64,000 nucleotides of DNA from a virus. Each line of letters begins with the position of its first letter. Position 1 is the stretch's first letter. The position numbers were made by a program, and so were the translations under genes. The notes below the pieces were generated by a model. That model saw only the letters and a list, made by a program, of their open reading frames with translations. It was not told the origin of the DNA and searched no databases. Shown here piece by piece: positions 9,454-30,315 of the stretch. Location of the stretch: the IMG/VR virus record IMGVR_UViG_3300042907_001325, positions 7,259 to 71,258 of that record. One strand, given 5' to 3'.

Positions 9454-10917
9454 TTAATTTTTTTTTGAGGAAAATGATTTAGCTAATTGTATTAAATCTT
9501 TTTCTGATAATTTACCGTCTGGCGTTAAATTATTGTCGGATTGAAAAGATTTGATGATTTTTTCAGTCTCATCTCCAAATTTTCCGTCATTACCAAATTT
9601 AGGTAATAAATACCCTAAACTGATTAAGGCTTTTTGTATTTTTGCAACATCATCATCGTAAGATATCTTTGAATCTGATTTTTTTAAATTTGTAAAATTT
9701 TTACCTGATTTTGTGATAGTTTCTAAATCTGATAAAAAATTTTTTTCATCCTCCTTAGGAACTGTTTTAGTATTTTTTTTTGACCCCGTAAATATTTTAT
9801 CGGCATTATTTAAAAGGTCTTTTAAATGTTTTCCTCTTGGTAATCCAATATGTACATGAGTCGTACTTTCATGACCTATCCATTCTGAAATTTCTCCAAT
9901 ATAGTCGCCAATTTTAACAACATCATCTTTTTTCAATTTAACATTTTTTAAATGAGTATAAAAAATATCAGGAAATTTCCCTGTACCTTTGATAGACACT
10001 TGAGTTCCAAATATTTTACCTGAGTTTTTTCCGGTATCTCTAATTTTAGTTACAACACCATCAGTATAAGAATTTACTACTGTTCCTGGAGGTGAAAATA
10101 TATCCCAAGCATTGTCAGATTGCCAATTACCGAGAGCTCGACCAGAATGGTTTTTAGGTCCGTTTACTAAATCAGTTTTAAAAGTTCCACCAATATTTGT
10201 GGTAGATTCTTTAATTGATAATTCTTTATCGGTTTCTTTGTCTGCCGTGTTAAACAATTTTTCAATATGACCTGACCTTCTTAAAAATTTAAACACAAGA
10301 TTTTCATAAGACAATTCACCATCTTTTTCCAATCCTGACTTTCTATAGTCCTTTAATTTTTCTTTGATTTTTTCCAAATCTTTACCTTCATCAATTGCCG
10401 TATTAATCTTTTCCGTCCAACATTTAATTTTATTTGTTAGGACTTTTTTATCAACATTATTCTTAAATTTTTTTGGTTCAGATATCCATTCATTATTCAT
10501 AACGGAATATACTCCCGAACTATAATGAGATTCTTCAACATCTTGAGCATATAGTTCAACATCGTATCCAAAGATTCGGATATCATGTTTATCGTTAAAC
10601 ACTTGTTTTTTTAAATTAAATAATTCCTTATATAGTTCCGATTGATTTTCATATTGTTGTAAATCAACAATTACGTGTAAATCAAAATCTGAGAACTCGG
10701 ACCAATTGTAATTTGCTAAAGAGCCTGTAAGATGAATATCTTCAACAAAAACCTCATCACCCAAATATTCAATAAATTTTTCTGCAATACGTGAAAGAGC
10801 CTCTCTAACCTTTGGTATCATAACCGATTGGTCAGGTTTTTTAGGGTTTTCCCAAACTTTAGGGTTTAAAGATTCTTTAAGTGAAAAACTATTAAGGATT
10901 TTTTGAAAATTATTCAT
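9454..10917 (-). CDS. Fusion: Pol-beta-type nucleotidyltransferase + M23-like peptidase + peptidoglycan-binding domain
   Basis: LTGSLANYNW..SDFDLH (GS/DxD); DIFSPPGT.V, YTHL, HVHIG; IQKAL..LGY..DGKFG.ET..I..FQ..N.L.PDG. Confidence 0.75.
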   Translation of the reverse strand: MNNFQKILNSFSLKESLNPKVWENPKKPDQSVMIPKVREALSRIAEKFIEYLGDEVFVEDIHLTGSLANYNWSEFSDFDLHVIVDLQQYENQSELYKELFNLKKQVFNDKHDIRIFGYDVELYAQDVEESHYSSGVYSVMNNEWISEPKKFKNNVDKKVLTNKIKCWTEKINTAIDEGKDLEKIKEKLKDYRKSGLEKDGELSYENLVFKFLRRSGHIEKLFNTADKETDKELSIKESTTNIGGTFKTDLVNGPKNHSGRALGNWQSDNAWDIFSPPGTVVNSYTDGVVTKIRDTGKNSGKIFGTQVSIKGTGKFPDIFYTHLKNVKLKKDDVVKIGDYIGEISEWIGHESTTHVHIGLPRGKHLKDLLNNADKIFTGSKKNTKTVPKEDEKNFLSDLETITKSGKNFTNLKKSDSKISYDDDVAKIQKALISLGYLLPKFGNDGKFGDETEKIIKSFQSDNNLTPDGKLSEKDLIQLAKSFSSKKN

Positions 10918-11517: not shown

Positions 11518-11922
11518 TTAGGATTTTAATTTTCTTAATTGGTCTCTAATCTCGATGGACTTTTCAAAGTTTTGTTCTTTGATTGATTCCTTTAATTCCA
11601 ATTCAAGATTTTCAATCATCTCTTTATTGGTTCCCAAGTTTTTAATTTGGTCTCTTAACTTAACCGCTTCTTCAAAATCTTCCATTTCAATCGCTCTTTC
11701 AAGTTTAATATTAAGGTATTCTTCCTTACTCATTTCTTTTGGATTATCATTATCTAAATCCGATAAATCAAATACTTTTACATAACGAGTATATTTGTAA
11801 TTCCCATCAGGAGATTCAAAAGTATTGGTCGTCCAATCTTGTTTATTAAAATCTTCCATGATTTTGTCGTAACGAGCCATTAGGTCGTCAATGTTAAAAT
11901 TAAATTTTCTTCTGTGAAACAT
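11518..11922 (-). CDS. Protein with two UvrB/UvrC (UVR) coiled-coil motifs, McsA-like adaptor candidate
   Basis: LERAIEMEDFEEAVKLRDQI and LKESIKEQNFEKSIEIRDQL; divergent from clpC. Confidence 0.75.
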   Translation of the reverse strand: MFHRRKFNFNIDDLMARYDKIMEDFNKQDWTTNTFESPDGNYKYTRYVKVFDLSDLDNDNPKEMSKEEYLNIKLERAIEMEDFEEAVKLRDQIKNLGTNKEMIENLELELKESIKEQNFEKSIEIRDQLRKLKS

Positions 11923-12110: not shown

Positions 12111-14126
12111 ATGAACGACTTAATGGACGACGACGACAAAATGATGAACAAAAAAACTAAATCATCTGGAGAATCTAACACACCTGTGTTAGATAATTTT
12201 AGTAGAGACTTAATGAAACTAGCGGAAGCTGGAAAACTTGACCCCGTTATTGGTCGTGATAGAGAAATCTTAAGGATTGCTCAAATTCTTTCTCGTAGAA
12301 AGAAAAATAACCCGATTATACTCGGAGAACCTGGTTGTGGTAAAACCGCACTTGTTGAAGGATTGGCAATCAAGATTGTAAATGGTGATTGTCCCCGTAA
12401 CTTGGTAGATAAACGTATTGTTAATCTTGACCTTACATCAGTTGTTGCCGGTACAAAGTATCGTGGACAATTTGAAGAAAGAATGAAAGTGATTATCGAA
12501 GAACTTCAATCAAACCCAAACATCATTGTATTCATTGATGAGATTCACACATTGGTTGGTTCAGGAAATTCTTCAGGTTCAATGGATGGTTCAAATATCT
12601 TTAAACCCGCATTGGCACGTGGGGAAATTCAATGTATCGGGGCAACTACATTAGATGAGTTCCGTAAAAACATTGAAAAAGATGGAGCATTGGAACGTAG
12701 ATTCCAAAAGGTAATCGTTGAACCATCATCAATTGATGAAACAATTCAAATCCTTAAGAATGTTCGTGACAAATACGAAGATTTCCACAAGGTGAATTAC
12801 AGCGATGAGGTAATTGAGACTTGTGTTAAGTTGGCAGACCGTTATATCACAGACCGTGAGTTCCCTGATAAAGCATTTGACATTTTGGATGAGGTTGGAG
12901 CAAGAATGCAGACCGAACTAAAGATACCTGAAGCAATTGAGGAGTTAAAAAGACAAGCAGCAGAAATCAAACTTCAAAAAATGGAAGTGGTTAAAAAACA
13001 AAACTACGAACAAGCTGCAGAGCTTCGTGACAAAGAAAAAAAATTGTTACTGAAGTTGGAGCAAGAAAAAATTAAGTTTGATGAAAAGTTGTCCAAAGAA
13101 AAACAACTCATCTTATTGGAACATGTTTATGATGTTGTATCAAACATGACAAAAATCCCTGTAAATAAAATGAGTGTGGATGATACTAAATCTTTGTTGG
13201 ACTTGGACAAAACTTTGATTGACAAAGTTATCGGTCAAAACAATGCGGTAGTTAAGATTGCAAAAGCAATCAAAAGAAATCGTTTGGGTATTAAAGACCC
13301 TAATCGTCCAATTGGGTCATTTGTGTTTTTAGGTTCGACAGGTGTTGGTAAGACATACCTGGCAAAACAATTGGCAAAAGAAATGTTCGGTTCCGAAGAT
13401 GCTCTCATTCGTGTCGACATGTCTGAATACCAAGAGAAACACACAATATCCAAATTAATTGGAGCACCTCCAGGATACGTAGGTTATGAAGAAGGCGGAT
13501 TGTTAACTGAGAAAGTTAAAAACAAACCTTACTCTGTAATCTTATTTGATGAGATTGAAAAAGCTCACAAAGATGTATTCACCATCCTACTTCAGGTTTT
13601 AGATGACGGTCATGTAACCGACAGTTTGGGACGTAAGATTAACTTCAAAAATACCTTGATTATCTTGACATCAAACTTGGGGGTTAAAAAACTACAAGAC
13701 TTTGGGGCTGGTATTGGTTTCTCAAGTAATTCATATAGTAATGAAGAAGCTAAGAAACAAATGTTAATGAAGGAAATGAAAAACTTCTTCTCACCTGAGT
13801 TCATTAATCGTATTGATGATACGGTTGTATTTAACTCATTGACTAAAGAAGACATCAAAAAGATTACCGACATTGAATTAAAGAAGTTGGTGACTCGTCT
13901 TGTAGATATGAAGTACAAAATCACATATGACGAATCTTTGGTTGAGTATTTATCAAAGATTGGATACGATGAATTGTACGGAGCTCGTCCATTGAAGAGA
14001 GCTATTCAGGATAAGGTTGAAGACCTATTGTCAGAAGAAGTTCTAACGGGTAAGATGATTGAAGGTAAGACCTATCACATCAAAGTAGTGGGTGAAAACG
14101 TGGTGGTCCAAAAAAAAGGACGATAA
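12111..14126 (+). CDS. clpC: ClpC-type AAA+ unfoldase lacking the N-terminal Clp-repeat domain
   Basis: Two Walker A motifs (GEPGCGKT, GSTGVGKT), KYRG pore loop, UVR middle domain, GIGF ClpP-docking loop, GARPL. Confidence 0.92.
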   Translation: MNDLMDDDDKMMNKKTKSSGESNTPVLDNFSRDLMKLAEAGKLDPVIGRDREILRIAQILSRRKKNNPIILGEPGCGKTALVEGLAIKIVNGDCPRNLVDKRIVNLDLTSVVAGTKYRGQFEERMKVIIEELQSNPNIIVFIDEIHTLVGSGNSSGSMDGSNIFKPALARGEIQCIGATTLDEFRKNIEKDGALERRFQKVIVEPSSIDETIQILKNVRDKYEDFHKVNYSDEVIETCVKLADRYITDREFPDKAFDILDEVGARMQTELKIPEAIEELKRQAAEIKLQKMEVVKKQNYEQAAELRDKEKKLLLKLEQEKIKFDEKLSKEKQLILLEHVYDVVSNMTKIPVNKMSVDDTKSLLDLDKTLIDKVIGQNNAVVKIAKAIKRNRLGIKDPNRPIGSFVFLGSTGVGKTYLAKQLAKEMFGSEDALIRVDMSEYQEKHTISKLIGAPPGYVGYEEGGLLTEKVKNKPYSVILFDEIEKAHKDVFTILLQVLDDGHVTDSLGRKINFKNTLIILTSNLGVKKLQDFGAGIGFSSNSYSNEEAKKQMLMKEMKNFFSPEFINRIDDTVVFNSLTKEDIKKITDIELKKLVTRLVDMKYKITYDESLVEYLSKIGYDELYGARPLKRAIQDKVEDLLSEEVLTGKMIEGKTYHIKVVGENVVVQKKGR

Positions 14127-14356: not shown

Positions 14357-15196
14357 TTAAAACACTGACCGATTTCTCCAACCATGTTCAACCATTTCTT
14401 TATAGTGTAATTTATGACCAAGTTTATCAATCATTTTCTTACCCATGTCGATACCATTAATTACGTCTTCAACAACGACGTATTCATGGGTTGTGTGATA
14501 TTGGTAGTATCCAATTGAGAAGTTAATACAAGAGAAGTCAAACTTACCTCTTAACGCATATACGTCAGTATAAGGGTGAACCATGTATCTCATTCTATTT
14601 CCCATACCTTCTGTTAATACCTCATTACAAGCATCAAAAAATTCAGTCTCTCTGTCAAATAAAACTTGACCAAAACATTTTTCAGTAATCATCCAGTTTT
14701 CAGGTGCGTCAAATTGAATACCATATCCAACATTATCAAAAAATGATGAATCCGCCATCATTGAACCTTTACAACCGGTTTCTTCAGATACAAAGAACGC
14801 GGCCTTTACATACGGTAATTCTTTTAATAATCTAAGACATGCAAATACACCACATTTATCATCACCACCAATACCTGTTGGTTCTCCATCATTGTCATAT
14901 GCCTTATATGATAATTTAATTTCTTTTTGAGCATTTGGTAACATTTCCTCTCGGATATTAATATCGTTAAGTCCATGTACCGTATCCGTATGTGAAATTA
15001 CACATGGGAAATAAAATCCTTCAGGAAGTTCTTTTGATTCTTGTTTTGTTGCGTAGACGTTATTATATTCGTCCACATAGTGCTCAATATTATTTTCAGT
15101 TAACCAGTTAACCAAAAACTCAACCATTCTGTCCTCGCGATACGTTGCCGTAGGTACGCTCAAAACGGCTTTAAGTAATTCTAAATTTTGTTCCAT
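14357..15196 (-). CDS. M20/M28-family Zn peptidase
   Basis: SHTDTVH, GGDDKCG, SEETGC.GS, QFD, YHT..E. Confidence 0.8.
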   Translation of the reverse strand: MEQNLELLKAVLSVPTATYREDRMVEFLVNWLTENNIEHYVDEYNNVYATKQESKELPEGFYFPCVISHTDTVHGLNDINIREEMLPNAQKEIKLSYKAYDNDGEPTGIGGDDKCGVFACLRLLKELPYVKAAFFVSEETGCKGSMMADSSFFDNVGYGIQFDAPENWMITEKCFGQVLFDRETEFFDACNEVLTEGMGNRMRYMVHPYTDVYALRGKFDFSCINFSIGYYQYHTTHEYVVVEDVINGIDMGKKMIDKLGHKLHYKEMVEHGWRNRSVF

Positions 15197-15217: not shown

Positions 15218-17020
15218 TTACACTTCACCAAATTTAAATAACTCTGGTTGATATAATAAATTATTAAATTGCTCTTCATTCAGTTTACGGGTAGTAAATC
15301 CTGTAGGTAGTTGTAATTCAACAACAATTTGCATATTGTCTCTATCAAAATTTTTAACTTTGAAATTTATTGATTCATCTTTTGGTAATTTATACCATTT
15401 ACCTATCTCGTATTTAGATAATATTTTTTGTCTAAGTTCCAAAAATTTTACTATTGGGGTTCCATCTTCTTCAATCTTTTCTAAGATACTATCAAATTGT
15501 CTTCCAACCTCTCTGTTGAATGACTCAGTATCAAAATTATCAGAATCTTGATATTCATATGTGTCGTCATACCAACCGCCCATACTACCGCCACTTTGTT
15601 CAACAATCTGATTAAATAATGAAATAACATCAGTTTTATTGATTTCAAGTCTTGTTGACCACATTAATAGATTTGCCGGTGTTGTTGTAATCTCATCATA
15701 TCTTCTTTTAAGGGCAAATCCTGTAGATTCTAAAACGTCATTAATTTCTTTTGTGATAGATTCTTTGGCGGTAATGCTCATTTCTCTATTTTTTTCTACA
15801 AAATAATCATTTATGATATTATCGGTTTCTGTTTCAAATAAATCTAATAATACCGCAGCTAACTCTTGTTGATACTCATTTAACAAACTAAATGATTTTG
15901 ATGGCAATAAAACGTCTGAGATTTGTTTTATTTTTTCTGTGTTCTCATCATTTAAGTCAGCAAATATAAGATACCCTTCTTTAAAATCGTCATAAATAGT
16001 ATATTCATCCATAAATTCATAATCACTATAACTTGAAGATACCGCATTCATAAACCACACGTCGTCGTCACTTACATCAAAATTTTTAAAAAAATTCTTA
16101 TCATCACCAAAATCAATAACAATTTTACTTTGTCCCAATGGGTCCTTAATTATAACATCAAGAATCGATGGGTCAGAATCTATTAATTCTTCAACAGTTG
16201 CAATCCCCCTTGTAAATTCTCTTAATTTTTTAATGAATTCACCAACACCCGTTAAATCGTCAATAAGGTCACTTTGATTTGGAAAATATTCTTTAAGGTA
16301 TTCAATAGTTTTTGCGAAATCTTGAGCATCAAATACTTCAGTTTTTTTTTCACTTTCATTTTGATATAACGCAATTTTATTGTTAGTTTTTTTATTTAAA
16401 AAATAATATAAATTACCATCTCTTGTATATTTGTCAAAATACGATGTTGACCCTTTTTGAGTTGTACACCATTTGGTGTTGGTACCATAATAACAAGATG
16501 CTGAATGTGATTTTGGTCTAACCACCAACACTTCATCATCTTCATAAATTTTATCAACTTGAGATTTAATCTCCAGTTCAATTTGTTTTTGAGTTTTTCT
16601 ACTATCAATAATGGACATTAATTTCTTAATGAATTGAGGATTTTCATATTGATTAATATCCTTTGGTGAACGAGCAATCCCCACAATATTTGGTACTAAA
16701 TAACTATTATTTGTGTCGGCGATAAATTCAGTTTCCGCTTTCCAAATATCATCTTCAGTTATTCTATTAACATTTACATGGAACCAAGGAATTATTATTC
16801 CAAATAAATCTTGTAGTGATTCTGACTGCCGAACATTTAATCCACCTTTTTCACCTGATAATTCAGGAATAATTTTTTCAAGTTTTTTTGCAATATACTC
16901 AACATATTTGTAGTTTGTTGGGTCAACACTTAATATCCTGTCAATGAATGGGCCATCATACTCAAACCGTTGTTTAAGTTGTTTTGCAATATCTTCCTTT
17001 TTACCTTCAATTATAATCAC
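15218..17020 (-). CDS. Large hypothetical protein, SCxYGxxTxWC family paralog 1
   Basis: ASCYYGTNTKWCTT; N-terminus IIIEGKKED matches paralog 2. Confidence 0.75.
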   Translation of the reverse strand: MIIIEGKKEDIAKQLKQRFEYDGPFIDRILSVDPTNYKYVEYIAKKLEKIIPELSGEKGGLNVRQSESLQDLFGIIIPWFHVNVNRITEDDIWKAETEFIADTNNSYLVPNIVGIARSPKDINQYENPQFIKKLMSIIDSRKTQKQIELEIKSQVDKIYEDDEVLVVRPKSHSASCYYGTNTKWCTTQKGSTSYFDKYTRDGNLYYFLNKKTNNKIALYQNESEKKTEVFDAQDFAKTIEYLKEYFPNQSDLIDDLTGVGEFIKKLREFTRGIATVEELIDSDPSILDVIIKDPLGQSKIVIDFGDDKNFFKNFDVSDDDVWFMNAVSSSYSDYEFMDEYTIYDDFKEGYLIFADLNDENTEKIKQISDVLLPSKSFSLLNEYQQELAAVLLDLFETETDNIINDYFVEKNREMSITAKESITKEINDVLESTGFALKRRYDEITTTPANLLMWSTRLEINKTDVISLFNQIVEQSGGSMGGWYDDTYEYQDSDNFDTESFNREVGRQFDSILEKIEEDGTPIVKFLELRQKILSKYEIGKWYKLPKDESINFKVKNFDRDNMQIVVELQLPTGFTTRKLNEEQFNNLLYQPELFKFGEV

Positions 17021-17073
17021 AGGATATTTTTACAATAAATACCAATTTTGTTTGTAATATTTATTTTTTGTCC

Positions 17074-17110
17074 TATCTTTGTATTTATAATATTACAAGT
17101 TATTTGACAT
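17074..17110 (+). promoter_or_regulatory. Bacteroidota-type promoter and boxA-like element for tmRNA
   Basis: TATCTTTG at 17074-17081; AAGTTATTTGACAT at 17097-17110. Confidence 0.55.
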
Positions 17111-17112
17111 AT

Positions 17113-17521
17113 GGGGGTGTTTTTGGATTTGACAGGTATTGGCTGAAGACAAAGGGCACGTGGAGACTGAATTAATCTCCTTAAAAACTGATTCACAAAA
17201 ACAATCGGCGACGTTTTATCGAAAATGGAAACTCTTGGTTTACTAAGAGGTTCTGAAGTTACTGTATCCTAAGAGGTTTACGGAAACGGGGGGTCGGTGG
17301 ACACATAACCTAGCAACAGAAGTCTTTATGGTGGAATACGATTGAACCATAAATCGAGTCGTCCATTGGTTGTTGATTTACGATGGTGAAGAACAAATCA
17401 ACTTTGTTTTTGGTCAAATTAAAACCAAATATTTTGGGGTATTAGAAAATACCAACCTAAACGTGTAGTCCTTATCTGACAGGATATTATGGACCGGAGT
17501 TCGAGCCTCCGCACCTCCACC
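17113..17521 (+). ncRNA. ssrA: tmRNA
   Basis: GGGGGTG/CACCTCC-A acceptor with G3:U; GGATTTGAC 5' motif; T arm CGGAG-TTCGAGC-CTCCG; PK1 GGAGA/TCTCC plus TGAATT/GATTCA; tag frame 17207-17272. Confidence 0.92.
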
Positions 17522-17524
17522 GTA

Positions 17525-17554
17525 GACCTCAATAGAAATATTGAGGTTTTTTTT
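17525..17554 (+). terminator. tmRNA terminator
   Basis: acctcaat-agaaat-attgaggt followed by T tract. Confidence 0.8.
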
Positions 17555-17620
17555 ATTACTTTTTTCCGTAGTAATTAATCATTAAACAACTCATAAGTAC
17601 AAAATCGCATATTTATTATT

Positions 17621-19147
17621 ATGAGATTAACTCCAATCCTTATTGTTGAAGGTCGTAAAGAAGATTTACGTAAAAAATACACTGAAAAATTTAAGGAGTA
17701 TCCCGAAAATTTAGATTTTATTTTGGGTATTTCAGATTTAGCAGATACCAACTTCAAATATGCCGATTTTGTGTTAAAGAATACAAATCCAAACGCCTCT
17801 TCTGAAGAAGTTGAACATATTGTAGACCTTGTTAAAGATTTTGATAGATTTCAACCATCATTAGAGATTAAAGATATTAACAAATATGATGTCTATAAAT
17901 TAGTGACCGCAATTGACAAACATAGAGAAACCTCAAAAACTCAACAAAAAAAATCAATTGATACCTCAGACGCCAAAAAATTATACGAAGACGATAACCT
18001 ATTAATTGTTAAACCTTTAACTTACGAATCGTCTTGTAAATATGGTTCAGGTACAAGATGGTGTACTACCAGTACACAATCTCATTTTAAAGGTTATACT
18101 GAAGATGGCCAATCCTTATATTACGTCATTCTTAAGAAATTTGACAGAAGTAATAAGTTTTATAAAATTGCAATTCATATGAAACCAAATTTGGAAACAT
18201 GGTATGACGCAACTGATGAAGTAATGTCAGACAGAGAAAAAGAAGTTTTTAATCTTGGAGCTCCAAAAGTAATTCAAACAATTAGAAAAAATTATGAGGA
18301 AAGTTTAAATAAAAAATACGATTTATTTTTTAAAAATTTGTTTAATTTTAATAATTACAAATTCGCTAATGTATCATCATTATTTAAAACAACACACAAA
18401 ATAGGGATTGAATTTCAAAAACCAGAACTTATTTCGGATATGCCAAATCATGCAACAATTGAGTTAAATATTTCAGTTGATGAGGATAATATCGACCAAT
18501 ATTTGGTTATGATTACTTATGATGTTAGAAAAATGGAAAATATTTACAATGGTAATGATATTCTTTTTACTATTGGATACTCAGGCGATGATTTTGAAAT
18601 TAAACCTGAATTTGATTTTGGTATTGAAAATGTGACAAACAAAGTTCAAATCTATATACCTAATTTTCATTATTTTGATGATAAAACCATCATCAATACT
18701 TTCAATGAAATTTGTCGGAAGATTGAGTCGCAAGTTATTAATAAAATGAAAGAAAATGACGAGTTTATGTTAAGTATAACTGATGGAAAAGGAAAAACCG
18801 TTTGGACACCAAACAGAAGTTCTTATGGTTTTACATTTAAAAGAAACTCCGGATTAATTAAAAAACTTATAGATTATTTGGATTCAGGAAAAGAAGGAAC
18901 AAAATTAGATTTTTTAGTTGCTATTGGTTCGTTAGATAAAATGAATATTAATGGTAAACCACAATATTCGCATAAAAACAAAAATGATTGGAGGATATCA
19001 TCAGAATTTAGAGGTCAATTAAGCGCATTCTTTAATTCAGCCAAATTAGCCGGAATATTAGATTACGATAAAAAAGGTAATCAATTCATTTTGAAAAAAG
19101 GGAAAAATTTTGATAAGTTCAAAGAAGGACAACTTGAAGCTATTTAA
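17621..19147 (+). CDS. Large hypothetical protein, SCxYGxxTxWC family paralog 2
   Basis: SSCKYGSGTRWCTT; leader ILIVEGRKED; TATTTAT just before ATG. Confidence 0.75.
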   Translation: MRLTPILIVEGRKEDLRKKYTEKFKEYPENLDFILGISDLADTNFKYADFVLKNTNPNASSEEVEHIVDLVKDFDRFQPSLEIKDINKYDVYKLVTAIDKHRETSKTQQKKSIDTSDAKKLYEDDNLLIVKPLTYESSCKYGSGTRWCTTSTQSHFKGYTEDGQSLYYVILKKFDRSNKFYKIAIHMKPNLETWYDATDEVMSDREKEVFNLGAPKVIQTIRKNYEESLNKKYDLFFKNLFNFNNYKFANVSSLFKTTHKIGIEFQKPELISDMPNHATIELNISVDEDNIDQYLVMITYDVRKMENIYNGNDILFTIGYSGDDFEIKPEFDFGIENVTNKVQIYIPNFHYFDDKTIINTFNEICRKIESQVINKMKENDEFMLSITDGKGKTVWTPNRSSYGFTFKRNSGLIKKLIDYLDSGKEGTKLDFLVAIGSLDKMNINGKPQYSHKNKNDWRISSEFRGQLSAFFNSAKLAGILDYDKKGNQFILKKGKNFDKFKEGQLEAI

Positions 19148-24869: not shown

Positions 24870-24921
24870 AATTGTTTATTTTAAATATTTAATTTTAATA
24901 ATTCTTATAATCTACGTAATG

Positions 24922-24993
24922 TAGTCCCGTCTGGATTCGAACCAGAAATAGAAGATTAGAAATCTACTGTGATATCCCTTTCACTACGGAACC
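24922..24993 (-). tRNA. tRNA-Arg(UCU)
   Basis: GGTTCCG/CGGGACT acceptor; loop TT-TCT-AA; GGTTCGAATCC. Confidence 0.88.
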
Positions 24994-24998
24994 ATATT

Positions 24999-25224
24999 GT
25001 AGTATTTATTAGTTGGCTTGCCCCACCTGAGATTACGGTGGGTAAATTTATCTTCTATTTTCATATTGAAAATACGTGACGGTCTTACCCGCGCATAAAA
25101 GTCAAACATACTTGGTAGATTTGTTACGTCTATTATCCAAGAACCCCCTCTATAAAGTCGTGGAAGGTGACAACTATACCATTTATCAGTAACGGTACCA
25201 AAACTACTGAGTATCTCTTACTCA
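24999..25224 (-). ncRNA. Candidate structured ncRNA (~225 nt) directly upstream of tRNA-Arg
   Basis: No track ORF, higher GC; nested stems GTAGT/ACTAC and TAGTTG/CAACTA with at least 5 hairpins. Confidence 0.55.
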
Positions 25225-25236
25225 TTTGTTGTTAAG

Positions 25237-25338
25237 TCATTTATTATAATAATATCTATCATATAAATATCTTTCATATTCTTCTGAGTCAATAAACTCT
25301 TCATAAATTTCTTGATGTATGTCTATGAAGTTTTCCAT
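25237..25338 (-). CDS. 33-aa acidic/Tyr-rich peptide
   Basis: MENFIDIHQEIYEEFIDSEEYERYLYDRYYYNK; TATATTTG upstream. Confidence 0.45.
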   Translation of the reverse strand: MENFIDIHQEIYEEFIDSEEYERYLYDRYYYNK

Positions 25339-25422
25339 ATTTTTGTTTTTAACAAATATACAAACTTATTTCAAATAGTAACTTTTTTATTATAAAATTA
25401 CTATTTATTATAAAAAAGTTTT

Positions 25423-26511
25423 ATGAAAATAATGGTAACGGAACAACAATTAAGAGTTTTAAATAAATTTTTAATAACAGAAGGTAATATTGATTTTACT
25501 AAACCGTATATAGTTGTAACACCAGCAAAACTTGGAGAGACATACGTTCGCATAAAAGGGTTTATTACTTTTTCAGTTGCTTCGTCTGAAATGGCAACAA
25601 ATGCCGTTACAGCCGCAATAAATACAATATTAGCCGACCTTAAAAATAAAGGGTATTCAACAAAAGGTTTGAGTTTTTTAAATATATATGGAGGAGCGAG
25701 CAATTATTTAAATGGAGCAATGAAGGCCGATAAAATAATGACAGATGTTGAAGGATTTTTTAGTTCAACTTCATTTAAGTTTGCCGAGAATAACCTGCCA
25801 AGTTACCCTGGTGAAGCAAACAGAGCAAAAAATTTGGAATATGCTCAAGCAAGGTGTGCGGTTTTAAAAAACGCATTAATAAAAAATTTCCCTCCCACAG
25901 CAGCTGCTGTGATAAGAGAACCAACTTCATTTGTAATGGATACTGGCGGAGTTGTTGATTCAAAAAGAGACTTAACCAAATATCCTGTTCCAGGCCAAAT
26001 GGCGATGTTTGTCGCTAAGGTTGATATACAACCTTTAACTAGTATAACGACATATAACGAAATAGGTCCAAATAATATAATGACTGGGTCTTATTATTGT
26101 AATGGTAAAAACTCACTTGGGATTGTTGCCGAAGAAGATACATATGTTGAACAATGTAAAAATCAAGGCGGATTACCAATTAAGGATGGAAAATTTATGT
26201 CTGGTTTTGAAATTAAATGGGCCGCAGATGTGGTAGGTAACCCAAAGGTAATTCCTATTATGAGATGGAATATTTTTTGGAAGGAATCTATTAATAGGGT
26301 TAATGGTAAAGAAACAAAGTCATATTCTCCTTTTAAGGTGACTAGAGTAATGTATAAAAATGAATGGTCCTCTATGGCAAAAATTCCTGAAGGTACGACA
26401 ACTATTAATGACCCATCTTTAAAATATTTTATGGGACTTAAGGAAAATGACCCAAATGGTGGAACGGCTTGGAAAAAATTTCTTGCTCCCCCATACGGAG
26501 TTGCCAAGTAA
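25423..26511 (+). CDS. Divergent OmpA-like protein with MKIMVTEQQL...LITEG leader
   Basis: NIYGGAS...NLEYAQARC..LKNAL resembles the OmpA_C signature. Confidence 0.5.
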   Translation: MKIMVTEQQLRVLNKFLITEGNIDFTKPYIVVTPAKLGETYVRIKGFITFSVASSEMATNAVTAAINTILADLKNKGYSTKGLSFLNIYGGASNYLNGAMKADKIMTDVEGFFSSTSFKFAENNLPSYPGEANRAKNLEYAQARCAVLKNALIKNFPPTAAAVIREPTSFVMDTGGVVDSKRDLTKYPVPGQMAMFVAKVDIQPLTSITTYNEIGPNNIMTGSYYCNGKNSLGIVAEEDTYVEQCKNQGGLPIKDGKFMSGFEIKWAADVVGNPKVIPIMRWNIFWKESINRVNGKETKSYSPFKVTRVMYKNEWSSMAKIPEGTTTINDPSLKYFMGLKENDPNGGTAWKKFLAPPYGVAK

Positions 26512-26535
26512 TAACTTACAACAAAAAATTTTTAA

Positions 26536-27108
26536 TTAAAATTTTATATAAGTTAAATTTACAAAATTAACAAATATAAAATATTTACCTGTTATTGATT
26601 TTTTAACGGAACATGAAATTAATCCACTGAACCCAAAAACATTTGTAAAATTACTCTCAATAGTTTTTTTATGCGGTGGAGAATTTAACCAAGCTTTAAC
26701 ACTAATTGATGCAAACTCTTGATATGTTGATAATTCATAGTTTTCAAAAACATTAAGTATCTCAGCATACGAATTCATATCTAACATATCTAAAGTCAAT
26801 TCCGAGACTTTATTTATAACACATATTTCTTTGTATATTTTTTCATTAATAACTTTGTTGGTTCTATCGTATTTTGGGTGAAAACCTAAATCAGATTTGG
26901 CATTAAGTAATGCATGTTTTGAGGTAATTTCTTGATTAACTACTTTAGATTTTGACAATACACCAATACCAATATTTTTTCTATGTTCATTAATTTGTTT
27001 AATAATTTCAGATTCAAGAATATCGTAATTAATAACACCGTTTTCAATCTTTTGAGAGTACCCAAAAAAAGAAAAAATAAATACAATAAACACAATAATA
27101 TAATTCAT
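26536..27108 (-). CDS. Secreted CAP/SCP-domain protein 2
   Basis: Signal peptide ...FFGYSQ; INEHRK..G, H, AEI, AWLNSPPHK; TATCTTTG upstream. Confidence 0.75.
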   Translation of the reverse strand: MNYIIVFIVFIFSFFGYSQKIENGVINYDILESEIIKQINEHRKNIGIGVLSKSKVVNQEITSKHALLNAKSDLGFHPKYDRTNKVINEKIYKEICVINKVSELTLDMLDMNSYAEILNVFENYELSTYQEFASISVKAWLNSPPHKKTIESNFTNVFGFSGLISCSVKKSITGKYFIFVNFVNLTYIKF

Positions 27109-27187
27109 AACTTTTATTTTTAGATTGTTTGTTTAACAAAGATATGGTATTTAATTCAATTGGCAATGAAGATTATTCATTATTTTG

Positions 27188-27260
27188 CGGTCCCGACGGG
27201 ATTCGAACCCGTATCTCGCACCGTGACAGGGTGGAATTGTAACCATTCAACCACGGGACC
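27188..27260 (-). tRNA. tRNA-Asp(GUC)
   Basis: GGTCCCG/CGGGACC; loop CT-GTC-AC; GGTTCGAATCC. Confidence 0.9.
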
Positions 27261-27373
27261 AAAAGTTTGTGAGACCCGCTCCTCACTCTGAACTTGTACT
27301 TTGTTCTATTAAGCGTTTATTTAGTAAAGTCAAGGTATGAACCCTTATCGTAGTAAAGCTTGGTTGGCTATAG

Positions 27374-27445
27374 TAGTCCCACCGGGAATCGAACCCGACT
27401 TTCCAGGATGAAAACCTGACGACCTAACCGATAGTCGATGGGACC
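27374..27445 (-). tRNA. tRNA-Glu(UUC)
   Basis: GGTCCCA/TGGGACT; TCAGG-TTTTCAT-CCTGG; GGTTCGATTCC. Confidence 0.9.
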
Positions 27446-27520
27446 AAAAATAAGGGTAGACACGGGCCTAGCTAGCCATCTTTCAGGAAAGGCCCTTACG
27501 AATATTCTACCCTTTTGTTG

Positions 27521-27593
27521 TTGCGGGAACAGGGTTCGAACCTGTAATCTAGGCTTATGAGACCTAGCGGATGACCAATTTCCACATCCCGCG
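27521..27593 (-). tRNA. tRNA-Met(CAU), initiator-like
   Basis: CGCGGGA/TCCCGCA with C1:A72 mismatch; loop CT-CAT-AA. Confidence 0.85.
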
Positions 27594-27598
27594 ATATG

Positions 27599-27672
27599 TA
27601 GTTAATATTGGACTCGAACCAATGACCTATTCCGTATCAGGGAATTGCTCTAACCAACTGAGCTAATTAACT
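27599..27672 (-). tRNA. tRNA-Ile(GAU)
   Basis: AGTTAAT/ATTAACT; ATTCC-CTGATAC-GGAAT; TAGCTCAGTTGGTTAGAGC. Confidence 0.9.
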
Positions 27673-27749
27673 ATGTCCTCGTCTTTCCGAGATGTCAACT
27701 AAATTTCTTGGTAGAGGCACCTTTACACGGCCTTCAGTTCTACTTGTGG

Positions 27750-27826
27750 TGGGGTAACTAATGGGAATTGAACCCATGGCACAAGGTACCACAAACCTTT
27801 GCTCTACCAACTGAGCTATAGTTACC
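27750..27826 (-). tRNA. tRNA-His(GUG) with G-1 and encoded CCA
   Basis: G-GTAACTA/TAGTTAC-C-CCA; AAGGT-TTGTGGT-ACCTT. Confidence 0.9.
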
Positions 27827-29634: not shown

Positions 29635-30315
29635 ATGAATTACGGAAACGACTTTAAATCTTATTACACTCAACATTTGGGTAAACCATCATCACATATC
29701 GATTATTTCTCACAACAAATTGAATCATCTATGACTCCATATATTTTGGAAGAAAGAGAATTGAGAGTAACTCAAATGGATATCTTTTCACGATTAATGA
29801 GAGACCGATTATTATGGGTTGCGGGACCTGTTAATGATACCATGTCAACAATTGTACAAGCACAACTAATGTTTTTAGATTCAACCGACAAAAACGACAT
29901 TACAATGCATATTGACTCACCTGGAGGAAGCGTTAAATCTGGTTTATCTATGGTTGATGTTATGGAATATATTAATTGTGATATTCGTACGGTAAATACA
30001 GGTATGGCAGCATCAATGGGGTCAGTATTGTTAGGAGCAGGAACCAAAGGTAAACGTTCATCATTACGTTTTTCTAAAACAATGTTACATCAAACATCAG
30101 GTGGTGCTGGAGGTAACATTCAAGATGCTCGTATTAACATGATTGAATGGGAAAAAACCAATAAAATTCTTTTTGAGTTGTTGGGGTCTTATTGTGGTAA
30201 AAAAGCAGAACAAGTAATGAAAGATGCAACTCGTGATTTGTGGTTAAGTGCCGATGAAGCTCTTAAATATGGAATAATTGACGAAGTTGTTAAAACAAAA
30301 AAGAAGGGTAATTAA
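29635..30315 (+). CDS. clpP: ATP-dependent Clp protease proteolytic subunit
   Basis: MDIFSRLMRDR, DSPGGSV, GMAASMG, MLHQ, RDLWLSA.EA..YG.ID; Bacteroidota-like TPYILEER prefix. Confidence 0.95.
   Translation: MNYGNDFKSYYTQHLGKPSSHIDYFSQQIESSMTPYILEERELRVTQMDIFSRLMRDRLLWVAGPVNDTMSTIVQAQLMFLDSTDKNDITMHIDSPGGSVKSGLSMVDVMEYINCDIRTVNTGMAASMGSVLLGAGTKGKRSSLRFSKTMLHQTSGGAGGNIQDARINMIEWEKTNKILFELLGSYCGKKAEQVMKDATRDLWLSADEALKYGIIDEVVKTKKKGN

What the first reader, a model, noticed from the sequence alone, without database searches (positions are those of the whole stretch)
17113..17521. Phage tmRNA with a long non-canonical tag: (A)GDVLSKMETLGLLRGSEVTVS*
Seen: an intact tRNA-like domain and PK1, then a 21-codon frame from GGC 17207 to TAA 17272. 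Known: bacterial tags are usually about 10 aa and end in AA (Bacteroidota typically ...YALAA), the ClpX degron. This tag ends in VTVS. Inference: it may rescue ribosomes while evading host ClpXP, or route products to the phage's own ClpCP.
Basis: partly seen in the sequence, partly recalled or inferred. Interest (0 to 1): 0.78.

Follow-up and report, generated by a model that had tools for sequence, protein, structure and literature searches.

The report
Giant-phage tmRNA with double-length tag
A roughly 300-kb lake phage that probably infects Bacteroidota carries its own ribosome-rescue RNA, which writes a protein tag about twice the usual length; every related phage examined keeps this tag, and its unusual last residue in this window is only a local single-base variant.

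Summary
Rfam finds a full-length tmRNA at 17113-17522 (+) (104.4 bits). The tag frame GGC 17207 to TAA 17270-17272 reads GDVLSKMETLGLLRGSEVTVS.

The window is part of a jumbo-phage record that is 24% complete. It also encodes a ClpC without an N-domain, and ClpP.

All 77 related loci examined carry a homologous 21-22-codon tag. The peptide is under selection:
- pN/pS is 0.60 in frame, against 0.92 and 1.29 out of frame.
- Leu and Arg codon families switch while the residue stays the same.

Cellular Bacteroidota tags in 52 of 55 loci are 8-10 aa and end in AA. The phage frame runs through the helix-5 hairpin, where those tmRNAs stop, which suggests an ancestral stop codon was lost.

44 of 47 distinct family tags end in Ala, so escape from ClpXP is not supported.

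Reading of the tag by the phage ClpC-ClpP is plausible: synteny is 47 of 47. It is untested. This scan has already noted this phage family on other DNA.

The parts
17074..17081 (+). TATCTTTG, a match to the TAnnTTTG motif, 31 nt upstream of the mature 5' end. It is a possible Bacteroidota-type promoter element.
Evidence: The motif occurs 142 times in the window against 113 +/- 9 in shuffles (1 of 100 shuffles reach 142), so the enrichment is weak. No sigma-70-type promoter was found in 16900-17700.
17113..17522 (+). One-piece tmRNA gene (ssrA), 410 nt.
   Evidence: Rfam RF00023, 104.4 bits, E 9.6e-40, full model. Homologues occur in 77 related loci.
17162..17195 (+). Pseudoknot PK1 (two interleaved stems), followed by the 11-nt spacer 17196-17206.
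   Evidence: Rfam alignment and the sequence. The pairings were read by eye.
17207..17272 (+). Tag reading frame: resume codon GGC, 21 sense codons giving GDVLSKMETLGLLRGSEVTVS, and stop TAA at 17270-17272. The last codon, TCC 17267-17269, is the Ala-to-Ser variant.
   Evidence: In-frame pN/pS is 0.60 against 0.92 and 1.29 in the other frames.
17227..17254 (+). Hairpin inside the tag frame, the positional equivalent of helix 5. Its loop, 17239-17242, lies in the invariant Gly11-Leu12 codons.
   Evidence: present in the MFE and centroid folds. Covariation test. The Rfam model aligns its helix-5 hairpin here.
17524..17557 (+). Intrinsic terminator: an 11-bp stem followed by a T-run, directly after the tmRNA.
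   Evidence: 1 found; 0.5 +/- 0.9 in shuffles.
12111..14126 (+). ClpC-type double-AAA+ unfoldase of 671 aa without the N-terminal Clp-repeat domain. It has an IGF ClpP-docking loop at residue 535 and a GYVG pore loop at 455.
   Evidence: Cellular Bacteroidota homologues are 842-850 aa and have the N-domain.
14357..15196 (-). M20-like peptidase lying between ClpC and the tmRNA.
   Evidence: phrog_4191 peptidase, E 1.5e-32. The Pfam Peptidase_M20 hit is below its cut-off (21.6 against 24.6 bits).
29635..30315 (+). Phage ClpP (226 aa).
   Evidence: PF00574, 189.9 bits.

Best explanation
This is a working, phage-encoded one-piece tmRNA.

Proposed mechanism:
1. It is transcribed as its own unit and ends at the intrinsic terminator.
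2. Its 3' end is completed by a CCA-adding enzyme, and it is charged with alanine through the G3:U70 pair.
3. With SmpB (the host's, or a phage copy as in some relatives) it enters stalled ribosomes.
4. Translation resumes at GGC 17207 and appends (A)GDVLSKMETLGLLRGSEVTVS.

Origin of the long tag. The tag is about twice the length of tags in the host phylum. The frame reads through the helix-5 hairpin, where cellular tmRNAs stop, and continues about 10 more codons. The most likely cause is an ancestral loss of the stop codon.

Function of the tag. The extended peptide is itself under selection across the phage clade and nearly always ends in a nonpolar stretch plus Ala. I therefore read it as a clade-specific degradation tag. 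Its C-terminus is threaded by a Clp-type unfoldase, and its conserved middle (K-[ML]-x-x-[LIV]-G-L) adds specificity. The leading candidate reader is the phage's own N-domain-less ClpC, docked on phage or host ClpP.

The window's ...VS ending is a recent single-base variant of the family's ...VA.

Shown: the RNA, the frame, its conservation, selection on the peptide, the hairpin inside the frame, and the synteny with ClpC.
Inferred: charging, SmpB use, the stop-loss origin, the degron function, and which protease reads the tag.
For: - tmRNA identity and resume codon.
- No start codon in the frame.
- Homologous 21-22-codon tag in 77 of 77 loci. Resume codons are GGC 69, GGA 4 and GAC 4. There are 47 distinct peptides.
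- Selection on the peptide:
  - Summed entropy by codon position is 20.5 / 14.9 / 29.5.
  - Leu12 is invariant but coded by TTA, CTT, CTA and TTG. Arg14 is coded by AGA and CGT. The terminal Ala uses all four codons.
  - pN/pS is 0.60 in frame, against 0.92 and 1.29 out of frame.
- Cellular Bacteroidota-phylum tags are 8-10 aa and end in AA in 52 of 55 loci.
- Helix-5 geometry:
  - Cellular: loop centre 33.5 nt from the resume codon and stop centre 32 nt (47 sequences).
  - Phage: loop centre 35 nt and stop centre 65 nt. The loop overlaps codons 11-12 in 48 of 61 sequences.
  - Rfam aligns its helix-5 loop, which holds the model's stop codon, to the phage Leu12 codon.
- Covariation in the hairpin: score 0.343 against 0.186 +/- 0.016 in shuffles (0 of 500 reach it), and above all slid registers.
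- Synteny: the tmRNA lies 2.0-5.6 kb downstream of ClpC in 47 of 47 ClpC-seeded loci with enough flank. ClpC is upstream in 6 of 6 tmRNA-seeded loci with enough flank.
- ClpC in this clade has [IVL]GF in 80 of 81 sequences, GYVG in 79 of 81, and never an N-domain.
- Phage ClpP is in the window.
- No ClpX, Lon or SspB in the 3 complete relatives.
- Terminator.
Against: - Nothing tests whether any protease reads the tag.
- ClpP is missing from 1 of 3 complete relatives that still have the tag and ClpC. SmpB is missing from another. Neither partner is fixed in the clade.
- The window's record shows no SmpB, but it is only 24% complete.
- An Ala-terminated nonpolar end could also be read by host ClpXP, which the two Bacteroidota genomes checked both have.
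- RNAalifold finds no fixed-column consensus helix in the tag region. Only 64.8% of cells pair under the window's hairpin, so the helix shifts register between subgroups.
- An RNA-structure constraint overlaps the peptide constraint and may inflate apparent conservation. pN/pS of 0.60 is only moderate, and distances are near saturation (pS 0.58).
- For the last four codons the frame control is not clean: 0.57 in frame against 1.06 and 0.54.
- Expression was not shown. The RNA runs were never laid.
Confidence: 0.55

Rival explanations
1. The tmRNA works as described, but the tag is read only by host proteases (ClpXP, Lon or others). The nearby phage ClpC, ClpP and peptidase serve other purposes, and the synteny reflects a conserved genome block rather than a pathway.
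For: - The family tag ends in nonpolar residues plus Ala (44 of 47 distinct tags), as host tags do.
- Host-lineage genomes have ClpX (2 of 2) and Lon (1 of 1).
- Phage ClpP is absent from 1 of 3 complete relatives.
- ClpC and the tmRNA are separated by two other genes.
Against: - Only 7 of 47 distinct tags end in AA, the ending found in all 52 cellular tags read.
- This reading leaves the 11-12 extra residues under selection without a role.
- Synteny with ClpC has no exception in the loci that could be assessed.
Confidence: 0.25
2. One reading: the tag rescues ribosomes but has evolved to escape degradation by host ClpXP. It either stabilises rescued products or reserves them for another fate.
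For: - The window's tag ends in VS, and most family tags end in VA rather than AA.
- The tag is unlike any cellular tag read here.
- No relative of one tag subtype was found among the genomes of 185,579 species (a narrow test).
Against: - The Ser is a one-base variant on four contigs.
- The terminal Ala is kept in 70 of 77 loci with all four codons. That points to selection for a C-terminal Ala, which is the opposite of escape.
- Escape would be achieved more simply by a charged end, and none of the 47 distinct tags has one.
Confidence: 0.1
3. The tag peptide itself does not matter. The phage needs only ribosome rescue, and the apparent conservation of the frame is a by-product of RNA structure in the mRNA-like domain.
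For: A hairpin with compensatory changes overlaps codons 7-16. Changes at residues 9-10 go together with the choice of Arg14 codon (read by eye).
Against: - Variation peaks at third codon positions, also in codons 1-8, which lie outside the hairpin.
- Residues are kept through switches between six-fold codon families.
- pN/pS is lowest in the tag frame.
- The stop codon position and the terminal Ala are kept in nearly all loci.
Confidence: 0.07
4. It is not a working gene. It is a decayed copy or an attachment-site remnant of a host ssrA gene picked up by the phage.
For: ARAGORN fails on it. The CCA end is not fully encoded. The Rfam score is lower than for cellular Bacteroidota tmRNAs (104 bits against 105-198).
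Against: - It matches the full model, with an intact acceptor stem, T-arm and PK1.
- It is conserved with an open frame in 77 of 77 loci across a clade whose ClpC diverges down to 69% identity.
- It has its own terminator.
- It shows almost no sequence similarity to cellular tmRNAs beyond the 3' end (best 19 bits), so it is not a recent capture.
Confidence: 0.03

Closest known systems
Cellular one-piece tmRNA (SsrA, Rfam RF00023) of Bacteroidota
   Same: Same overall plan: a tRNA-like domain with G3:U70, PK1, an A-rich spacer, a resume codon with no start codon, a hairpin about 33-35 nt after the resume codon, and further pseudoknots. A Gly resume codon is also common in the cellular tags read here, such as GENNYALAA and GNTQYAMAA.
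   Different: - The tag is 21-22 aa, against 8-10 aa.
- The stop lies about 30 nt beyond the helix-5 loop, not in or next to it.
- The ending is mostly VA (VS in the window), not AA.
- Sequence similarity is limited to the 3' end (19 bits).
- It is encoded by a phage.
Previously reported phage tmRNAs: the mycobacteriophage Bxz1 group, Bacillus phage G, and huge phages from metagenomes
   Same: Large phages carrying their own tmRNA, sometimes with SmpB, are on record:
- PMC4131195, passages seen.
- PMC7162821, passages seen.
- PMC12484599, passages seen. This gives phage G a 13-residue tag, AKLNITNNELQVA.
   Different: - None of the passages I saw describes a tag conserved across a phage clade, selection on the peptide, a frame running through helix 5, or a link to a ClpC without an N-domain.
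- Those studies used ARAGORN, which misses this gene and 62 of 77 relatives.
- I could not see the supplementary tables of PMC7162821. They may list such tmRNAs.
Long tmRNA tags of Mycoplasma and Mesoplasma, read by Lon instead of ClpXP
   Same: This is a precedent for a lengthened tag whose internal residues retarget it to a different AAA+ protease. The Mesoplasma florum tag and mf-Lon pair is used as an orthogonal degradation system (PMC9097571 and PMC10873288, search listing and start of abstract only). The original biochemical work is recalled, not read.
   Different: No Lon is encoded by the phages checked (0 of 3 complete relatives and the window's record). The candidate reader here is a ClpC-type unfoldase. 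No biochemistry exists for this tag.
Degradation of ssrA-tagged proteins by ClpXP or ClpAP with the SspB adaptor (E. coli model)
   Same: It works the same way in outline: a C-terminal nonpolar, Ala-ended tag added by trans-translation, and an AAA+ unfoldase with an IGF-type loop docking on ClpP. That ClpA can read such tags through its pore without its N-domain is recalled knowledge.
   Different: The phages encode neither ClpX nor SspB. The unfoldase is of ClpC type, which in cells normally depends on adaptors that bind the N-domain missing here (recalled). The tag is twice as long.

Membership tests
tmRNA (Rfam RF00023) | Covariance-model score above the curated gathering score over the full model | tested here: met
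   104.4 bits against 47; model positions 1-374 of 374.
tmRNA (Rfam RF00023) | tRNA-Ala-like domain: 7-bp acceptor stem with G3:U70, T-arm, discriminator A, and a CCA end | tested here: met
   The stem, G17115:T17516, the T-arm and A17519 are present (pairings read by eye). Only CC of the CCA is encoded (then G17522), so a CCA-adding enzyme is needed. Many relatives encode only one C.
tmRNA (Rfam RF00023) | PK1 followed by a short single-stranded spacer and a resume codon that opens a short frame without a start codon | tested here: met
   PK1 17162-17195, an 11-nt spacer, and GGC 17207 aligned to the model's resume codon. No start codon in the frame. The register is kept in 77 of 77 loci.
tmRNA (Rfam RF00023) | Tag stop codon in or next to the helix-5 hairpin | tested here: not met
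   The hairpin at the helix-5 position (loop 17239-17242) lies inside the frame, and the stop is 28 nt further on. Phage stop centre is 65 nt from the resume codon, against 32 nt in 47 cellular sequences. This is a departure within the family, not grounds to exclude it.
tmRNA (Rfam RF00023) | Pseudoknots PK2-PK4 between the tag frame and the 3' tRNA-like half | tested here: inconclusive
   The model aligns this part with low posterior probabilities and a 59-nt insertion. This block is swapped wholesale among close relatives.
tmRNA (Rfam RF00023) | Works with SmpB | tested here: inconclusive
   No SmpB in the 71-kb record, which is 24% complete. SmpB is present in 2 of 3 complete relatives. The host's SmpB could serve.
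tmRNA (Rfam RF00023) | Expressed as a stable RNA, charged with Ala, and adds the tag in vivo | not testable with these tools
   18 RNA runs hold 35-50% of the sampled words of 16950-17650.
Canonical ssrA degron (ClpX-type, ending in AA) | Tag of about 10 residues whose last two residues are Ala-Ala | tested here: not met
   The window's tag has 21 residues and ends in VS. In the family, 7 of 47 distinct tags end in AA and 28 in VA. All 52 cellular tags read end in AA.
Canonical ssrA degron (ClpX-type, ending in AA) | Degraded by ClpXP | not testable with these tools
   This needs biochemistry. ClpX is present in 2 of 2 host-lineage genomes and 0 of 3 complete phages.
ClpC-type class I Hsp100 unfoldase (for the candidate reader at 12111-14126) | Two AAA+ modules, a UVR-type middle domain, a ClpP-docking [IVL]GF loop, and an N-terminal double Clp-repeat domain | tested here: not met
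   Present: AAA, AAA_lid_9, AAA_2, ClpB_D2-small and a UVR hit, IGF at residue 535 and GYVG at 455. Absent: the N-domain, here and in all 81 clade members. It works like a ClpC and is a truncated member of that family.

The most novel reading that the evidence does not exclude
A large clade of roughly 300-kb Bacteroidota phages runs a private tag-and-destroy pathway. Their tmRNA lost the stop codon in helix 5 and so gained a 21-22-residue tag. The conserved middle of that tag makes it a substrate of the phage's own adaptor-free, N-domain-less ClpC, docked on phage or host ClpP. The neighbouring M20-like peptidase then finishes the job. In this way the phage clears and recycles stalled translation products independently of the host's ClpXP. 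This would be a natural counterpart of the orthogonal Mesoplasma tag and Lon pair.
Probability: 0.3. Interest if true: 0.8.

Novelty: new variant of a known kind. Interest (0 to 1): 0.58.

Why it matters
Phage tmRNAs are listed in genome papers but hardly studied. Three things make this one worth attention:

- **A testable case.** The tag is long, specific to a phage clade and under selection as a peptide. It is always inherited with an unfoldase that lacks the domain through which cellular ClpC is regulated. If the two work together, the pair is a compact, naturally orthogonal degron-protease system. It would also show that giant phages take over protein quality control as well as translation.
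- **A simple evolutionary route.** Loss of the stop codon in helix 5 shows how a tmRNA tag can be lengthened and then retargeted.
- **An annotation gap.** ARAGORN, the usual annotation tool, misses this gene and 62 of 77 relatives. Such tmRNAs are probably under-counted in phage catalogues.

Tried and rejected
- **ARAGORN.** It found no tmRNA in the window. In tmRNA-only mode on 77 relatives it called 15. Seven of those calls gave the long tag, six gave a shorter tag starting at an internal Ala codon of the same frame, and two gave a tag from elsewhere in the RNA. I rejected the short calls because codons 1-13 show the same third-position variation as the rest and because the Rfam resume position is GGC 17207.
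- **GenBank phages.** A blastn search with the tmRNA found no match.
- **Tag in cellular genomes.** The full tag alignment was too variable for the pattern builder. A narrower alignment gave 55 pattern matches and 0 confirmed. This tests only the G[NK]TFAKMA subtype, so it is a narrow negative.
- **RNAalifold on the tag region.** It predicted no consensus pairs. I kept the hairpin only because each sequence folds into one and because the explicit pair count beat the shuffles and the slid registers.
- **Last four codons.** pN/pS for these gave no clean contrast between frames, so I do not rely on it. The case for a selected terminal Ala rests on codon usage.
- **RNA pairing as the cause of Ala-to-Ser.** I checked whether the change compensates for a change in an RNA partner strand. 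The putative partner region is identical in the window and in VA-type relatives, so it does not.
- **Promoter.** The sigma-70 scan found none. The TAnnTTTG motif is only weakly enriched.
- **Expression.** 18 metatranscriptome runs from 17 studies hold 35-50% of the sampled words of 16950-17650, of which the tmRNA makes up 58%. They were never laid, so I do not know which part they hold and I do not count this as evidence.
- **Literature.** Four searches found no paper describing this family's tag.
- **Capsid-targeting idea.** I considered and dropped the idea that the tag is a capsid-targeting or prohead-protease signal. An [IL]-x-E motif is present in only some subtypes (read by eye).
Full report
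**What is there.** Rfam's tmRNA model matches window 17113-17522 (+) over its whole length (104.4 bits, gathering score 47, E 9.6e-40). ARAGORN reports six tRNAs in the window but no tmRNA. The sequence and the model alignment show these features:
- a 7-bp acceptor stem with the G3:U70 wobble that marks alanine identity (G17115:T17516);
- a T-arm, and discriminator A17519 followed by CC and then G, so the CCA end is not fully encoded;
- an H-type PK1 at 17162-17195;
- an 11-nt A-rich spacer, then GGC at 17207 aligned to the model's resume codon.

From there, 21 sense codons give GDVLSKMETLGLLRGSEVTVS, and TAA follows at 17270-17272. The frame has no start codon. An intrinsic terminator follows at 17524-17549.

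**What genome it is.** The window is part of an IMG/VR virus record of 71,258 bases that CheckV rates 24% complete. Relatives reach 309-321 kb, some with terminal repeats. The window encodes:
- a T4-type portal and large terminase;
- a 671-aa ClpC-type ATPase at 12111-14126;
- a ClpP at 29635-30315.

The ATPase has both Walker A/B pairs, a GYVG pore loop and an IGF ClpP-docking loop. It lacks the roughly 175-residue N-terminal Clp-repeat domain found in its 842-850-aa Bacteroidota homologues.

Its closest cellular relatives are 55-60% identical, and 77 of the 80 kept loci carry Bacteroidota names by title. Together with the Gly resume codon, which is also common in cellular Bacteroidota tags, this points to a Bacteroidota host. 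The TAnnTTTG motif is only weakly enriched (142 against 113 +/- 9).

**Is the tag real and conserved?**

*Relatives.* The ClpC protein recovered 80 related viral loci, and a 31-nt piece of the tmRNA recovered 21 more. nhmmer found the tmRNA in 83 of 104 loci held, and 77 of these hits were longer than 300 nt. One of the 77 is the window's own record, and L003 and L086 are one contig.

*Tag frame.* All 77 carry a homologous tag in the same register. 68 were found by a first motif. The other 9 differ in one or two key residues or use GAC as the resume codon. Across the 77:
- there are 60 distinct tag DNA sequences and 47 distinct peptides, 39 of 21 aa and 8 of 22 aa;
- the consensus is GNVLxKMAxLGLxRExxVVVA;
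- the resume codon is GGC in 69 loci, GGA in 4 and GAC in 4.

*Selection on the peptide.*
- Variation peaks at third codon positions (summed entropy 20.5 / 14.9 / 29.5), and this also holds in the first 13 codons.
- Gly11 and Leu12 are invariant, yet Leu12 is coded by TTA, CTT, CTA and TTG.
- Arg14 is coded by AGA and CGT, and the terminal Ala by all four codons.
- Over the first 17 codons, pN/pS is 0.60 in frame, against 0.92 and 1.29 in the other frames.

The peptide is therefore under purifying selection. That selection is moderate, and distances are near saturation.

**How it compares with host-lineage tags.** I reached real Bacteroidota genomes through the ClpC loci. tmRNA was found in 147 of 151 genomes sampled across the phylum as GTDB defines it.

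I read tags in 55 loci: the 30 best-scoring, 20 that I picked from the longer, lower-scoring class, and 5 from named genomes. ARAGORN called 54 of them:
- 52 have tags of 8-10 residues, all ending in AA (GENNYALAA, ANYNYALAA, DNNYSYRLAA, ADDYSYAMAA, GNTQYAMAA and similar);
- two calls look wrong (L187, L236), and one locus had no call.

The phage tag is about twice as long. At the sequence level the phage tmRNA resembles the cellular ones only at its 3' end (best 19 bits). A scan of one genome for each of 185,579 species for one tag subtype gave 55 pattern matches and none confirmed. That is a narrow negative.

**Where the extra length comes from.**

*Cellular tmRNAs.* The last tag codons form the 5' strand of the helix-5 hairpin, and the stop lies in or beside its loop. 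In 47 distinct sequences the first hairpin loop is centred 33.5 nt from the resume codon and the stop 32 nt. By a crude MFE measure, the stop overlaps the loop within one base in 23 of 47.

*Phage tmRNAs.* A hairpin sits at the same distance. The loop centre is 35 nt, and the loop overlaps codons 11-12 in 48 of 61 distinct sequences. The stop, however, is at 65 nt. In the window the loop (17239-17242) falls in the Gly11-Leu12 codons. Rfam aligns its helix-5 loop, which holds the model's stop codon, to that Leu codon, though with low posterior probability.

*Covariation.* Stem sequences differ widely between subgroups.
- Against a conserved helix: RNAalifold finds no fixed-column consensus.
- For it: counting the window's hairpin across 58 distinct sequences gives 64.8% paired cells against 53.0 +/- 1.4 in shuffles. 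The covariation score is 0.343 against 0.186 +/- 0.016 (0 of 500 shuffles reach it), above every slid register (maximum 0.243). Seven of 10 pairs change on both sides.

*Reading.* I read this as helix 5 kept in place while the frame now runs through it. The simplest origin is loss of the ancestral stop in the loop and extension to the next stop. The first nine residues of some family tags (GNTFAKMAA) also resemble a whole cellular tag (GNTQYAMAA). This origin is an inference.

**The ...VS ending.** The window differs from its nearest VA-type relatives by a single G-to-T change at 17267 (GCC to TCC). The same change occurs in three other contigs (L003 = L086, L092, L004), so it is a real variant and not a sequencing error. 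The putative RNA partner region does not change with it.

Across the family, 44 of 47 distinct tags end in Ala (VA 28, AA 7, GA 4, TA 2, others 3), two end in Ile and one in Ser. But the family keeps a nonpolar, Ala-terminated end. That is what one expects of a tag still meant to be threaded by a Clp-type unfoldase, not of one built to escape it.

**Who reads the tag?** This is not shown.

In favour of the phage ClpC:
- The tmRNA lies 2.0-5.6 kb (median 2.7 kb) downstream of ClpC on the same strand in 47 of 47 ClpC-seeded loci with at least 6 kb of flank, and in 14 more with less flank.
- ClpC lies upstream in 6 of 6 tmRNA-seeded loci with at least 6 kb of flank.
- Across 81 clade members, ClpC keeps [IVL]GF in 80 and GYVG in 79, and never has an N-domain.
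- The three complete relatives encode no ClpX, Lon or SspB.

Against:
- One complete relative has the tag and ClpC (with its IGF loop) but no ClpP. Another lacks SmpB.
- Two genes separate ClpC from the tmRNA.
- Host-lineage genomes have ClpX (2 of 2) and Lon (1 of 1).

The synteny counts come from loci that are related to each other. They show joint inheritance, not function.

**Known or new?** Phage tmRNAs are known. Examples are the mycobacteriophage Bxz1 group, Bacillus phage G and mycobacteriophage DS6A (PMC4131195, passages). Huge phages carry tmRNA and SmpB (PMC7162821, passages). Phage G has a 13-residue tag (PMC12484599, passages). The commonest tag length in the current tmRNA database is 10 aa (PMC11915505, passage).

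Four full-text searches found nothing on this family's tag. Supplements were closed, and the library is incomplete.

This scan has met the same phage family on other DNA, with the same reading (notes e1-5689334, e1-5391265, e1-5595073, e1-5959945). Those are unchecked notes, and I tested the overlapping claims here independently. What I add here:
- the frame-controlled evidence for selection on the peptide;
- the geometry showing that the frame runs through helix 5;
- the demonstration that the VS ending is a local variant;
- the mosaic middle block.

**Verdict.** It is a new variant of a known kind, a tmRNA with an extended tag. The hypothesis that it pairs with the phage's N-domain-less ClpC is attractive but untested.

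Noticed in passing
window 17325-17455; L003, L092, L004, L089: The tmRNAs are mosaic. L003, L092 and L004 share the window's 5' half (including the TCC codon) and its 3' end, but carry a completely different PK2-PK4 middle block. L089, a VA-type relative, has that same block. This suggests recombination within the tmRNA gene among co-circulating phages.
   Followed up: partly
window 17113-17522 and 77 related loci: ARAGORN misses the window's tmRNA and 62 of 77 relatives even in tmRNA-only mode. Rfam finds the window's copy easily. Phage surveys that rely on ARAGORN probably under-count this family.
   Followed up: partly
window 15218-17020 (-) and 17621-19147 (+): The two large genes that flank the tmRNA (600 and 508 aa) both hit the same PHROG of unknown function, phrog_17056. 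They have no Pfam family and so look like diverged paralogues.
   Followed up: no
window 11518-11922 (-): A 134-aa protein with two UVR motifs (PF02151, 52 bits, two stretches) is transcribed divergently from the N-domain-less ClpC. ClpC's own middle domain is of UVR type. It could be a partner or regulator.
   Followed up: no
G003 (complete relative, 321,403 bp; locus L055): This complete relative has the long tag (with a GAC resume codon) and a ClpC with an IGF loop, but no ClpP hit. Another complete relative, G002, lacks SmpB. Only G001 has a CCA-adding-enzyme family hit.
   Followed up: partly
window 16950-17650: 18 freshwater or lake metatranscriptome runs from 17 studies hold 35-50% of the sampled words of this stretch, of which the tmRNA makes up 58%. 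They were never laid, so which part they hold is unknown.
   Followed up: no
window 9454-10917 (-): A single 487-aa frame joins a nucleotidyltransferase domain to an M23 peptidase and a peptidoglycan-binding domain.
   Followed up: no
window 24921-27825 (-): A cluster of six tRNA genes (Arg-TCT, Asp, Glu, Met, Ile, His) on the minus strand.
   Followed up: no
Bacteroidota-phylum genomes: Cellular tmRNAs in the sampled phylum fall into two size classes, about 350-375 nt with high Rfam scores and about 395-405 nt with lower scores. Most of the longer class that I fetched carry ADDYSYAMAA-type tags.
   Followed up: partly
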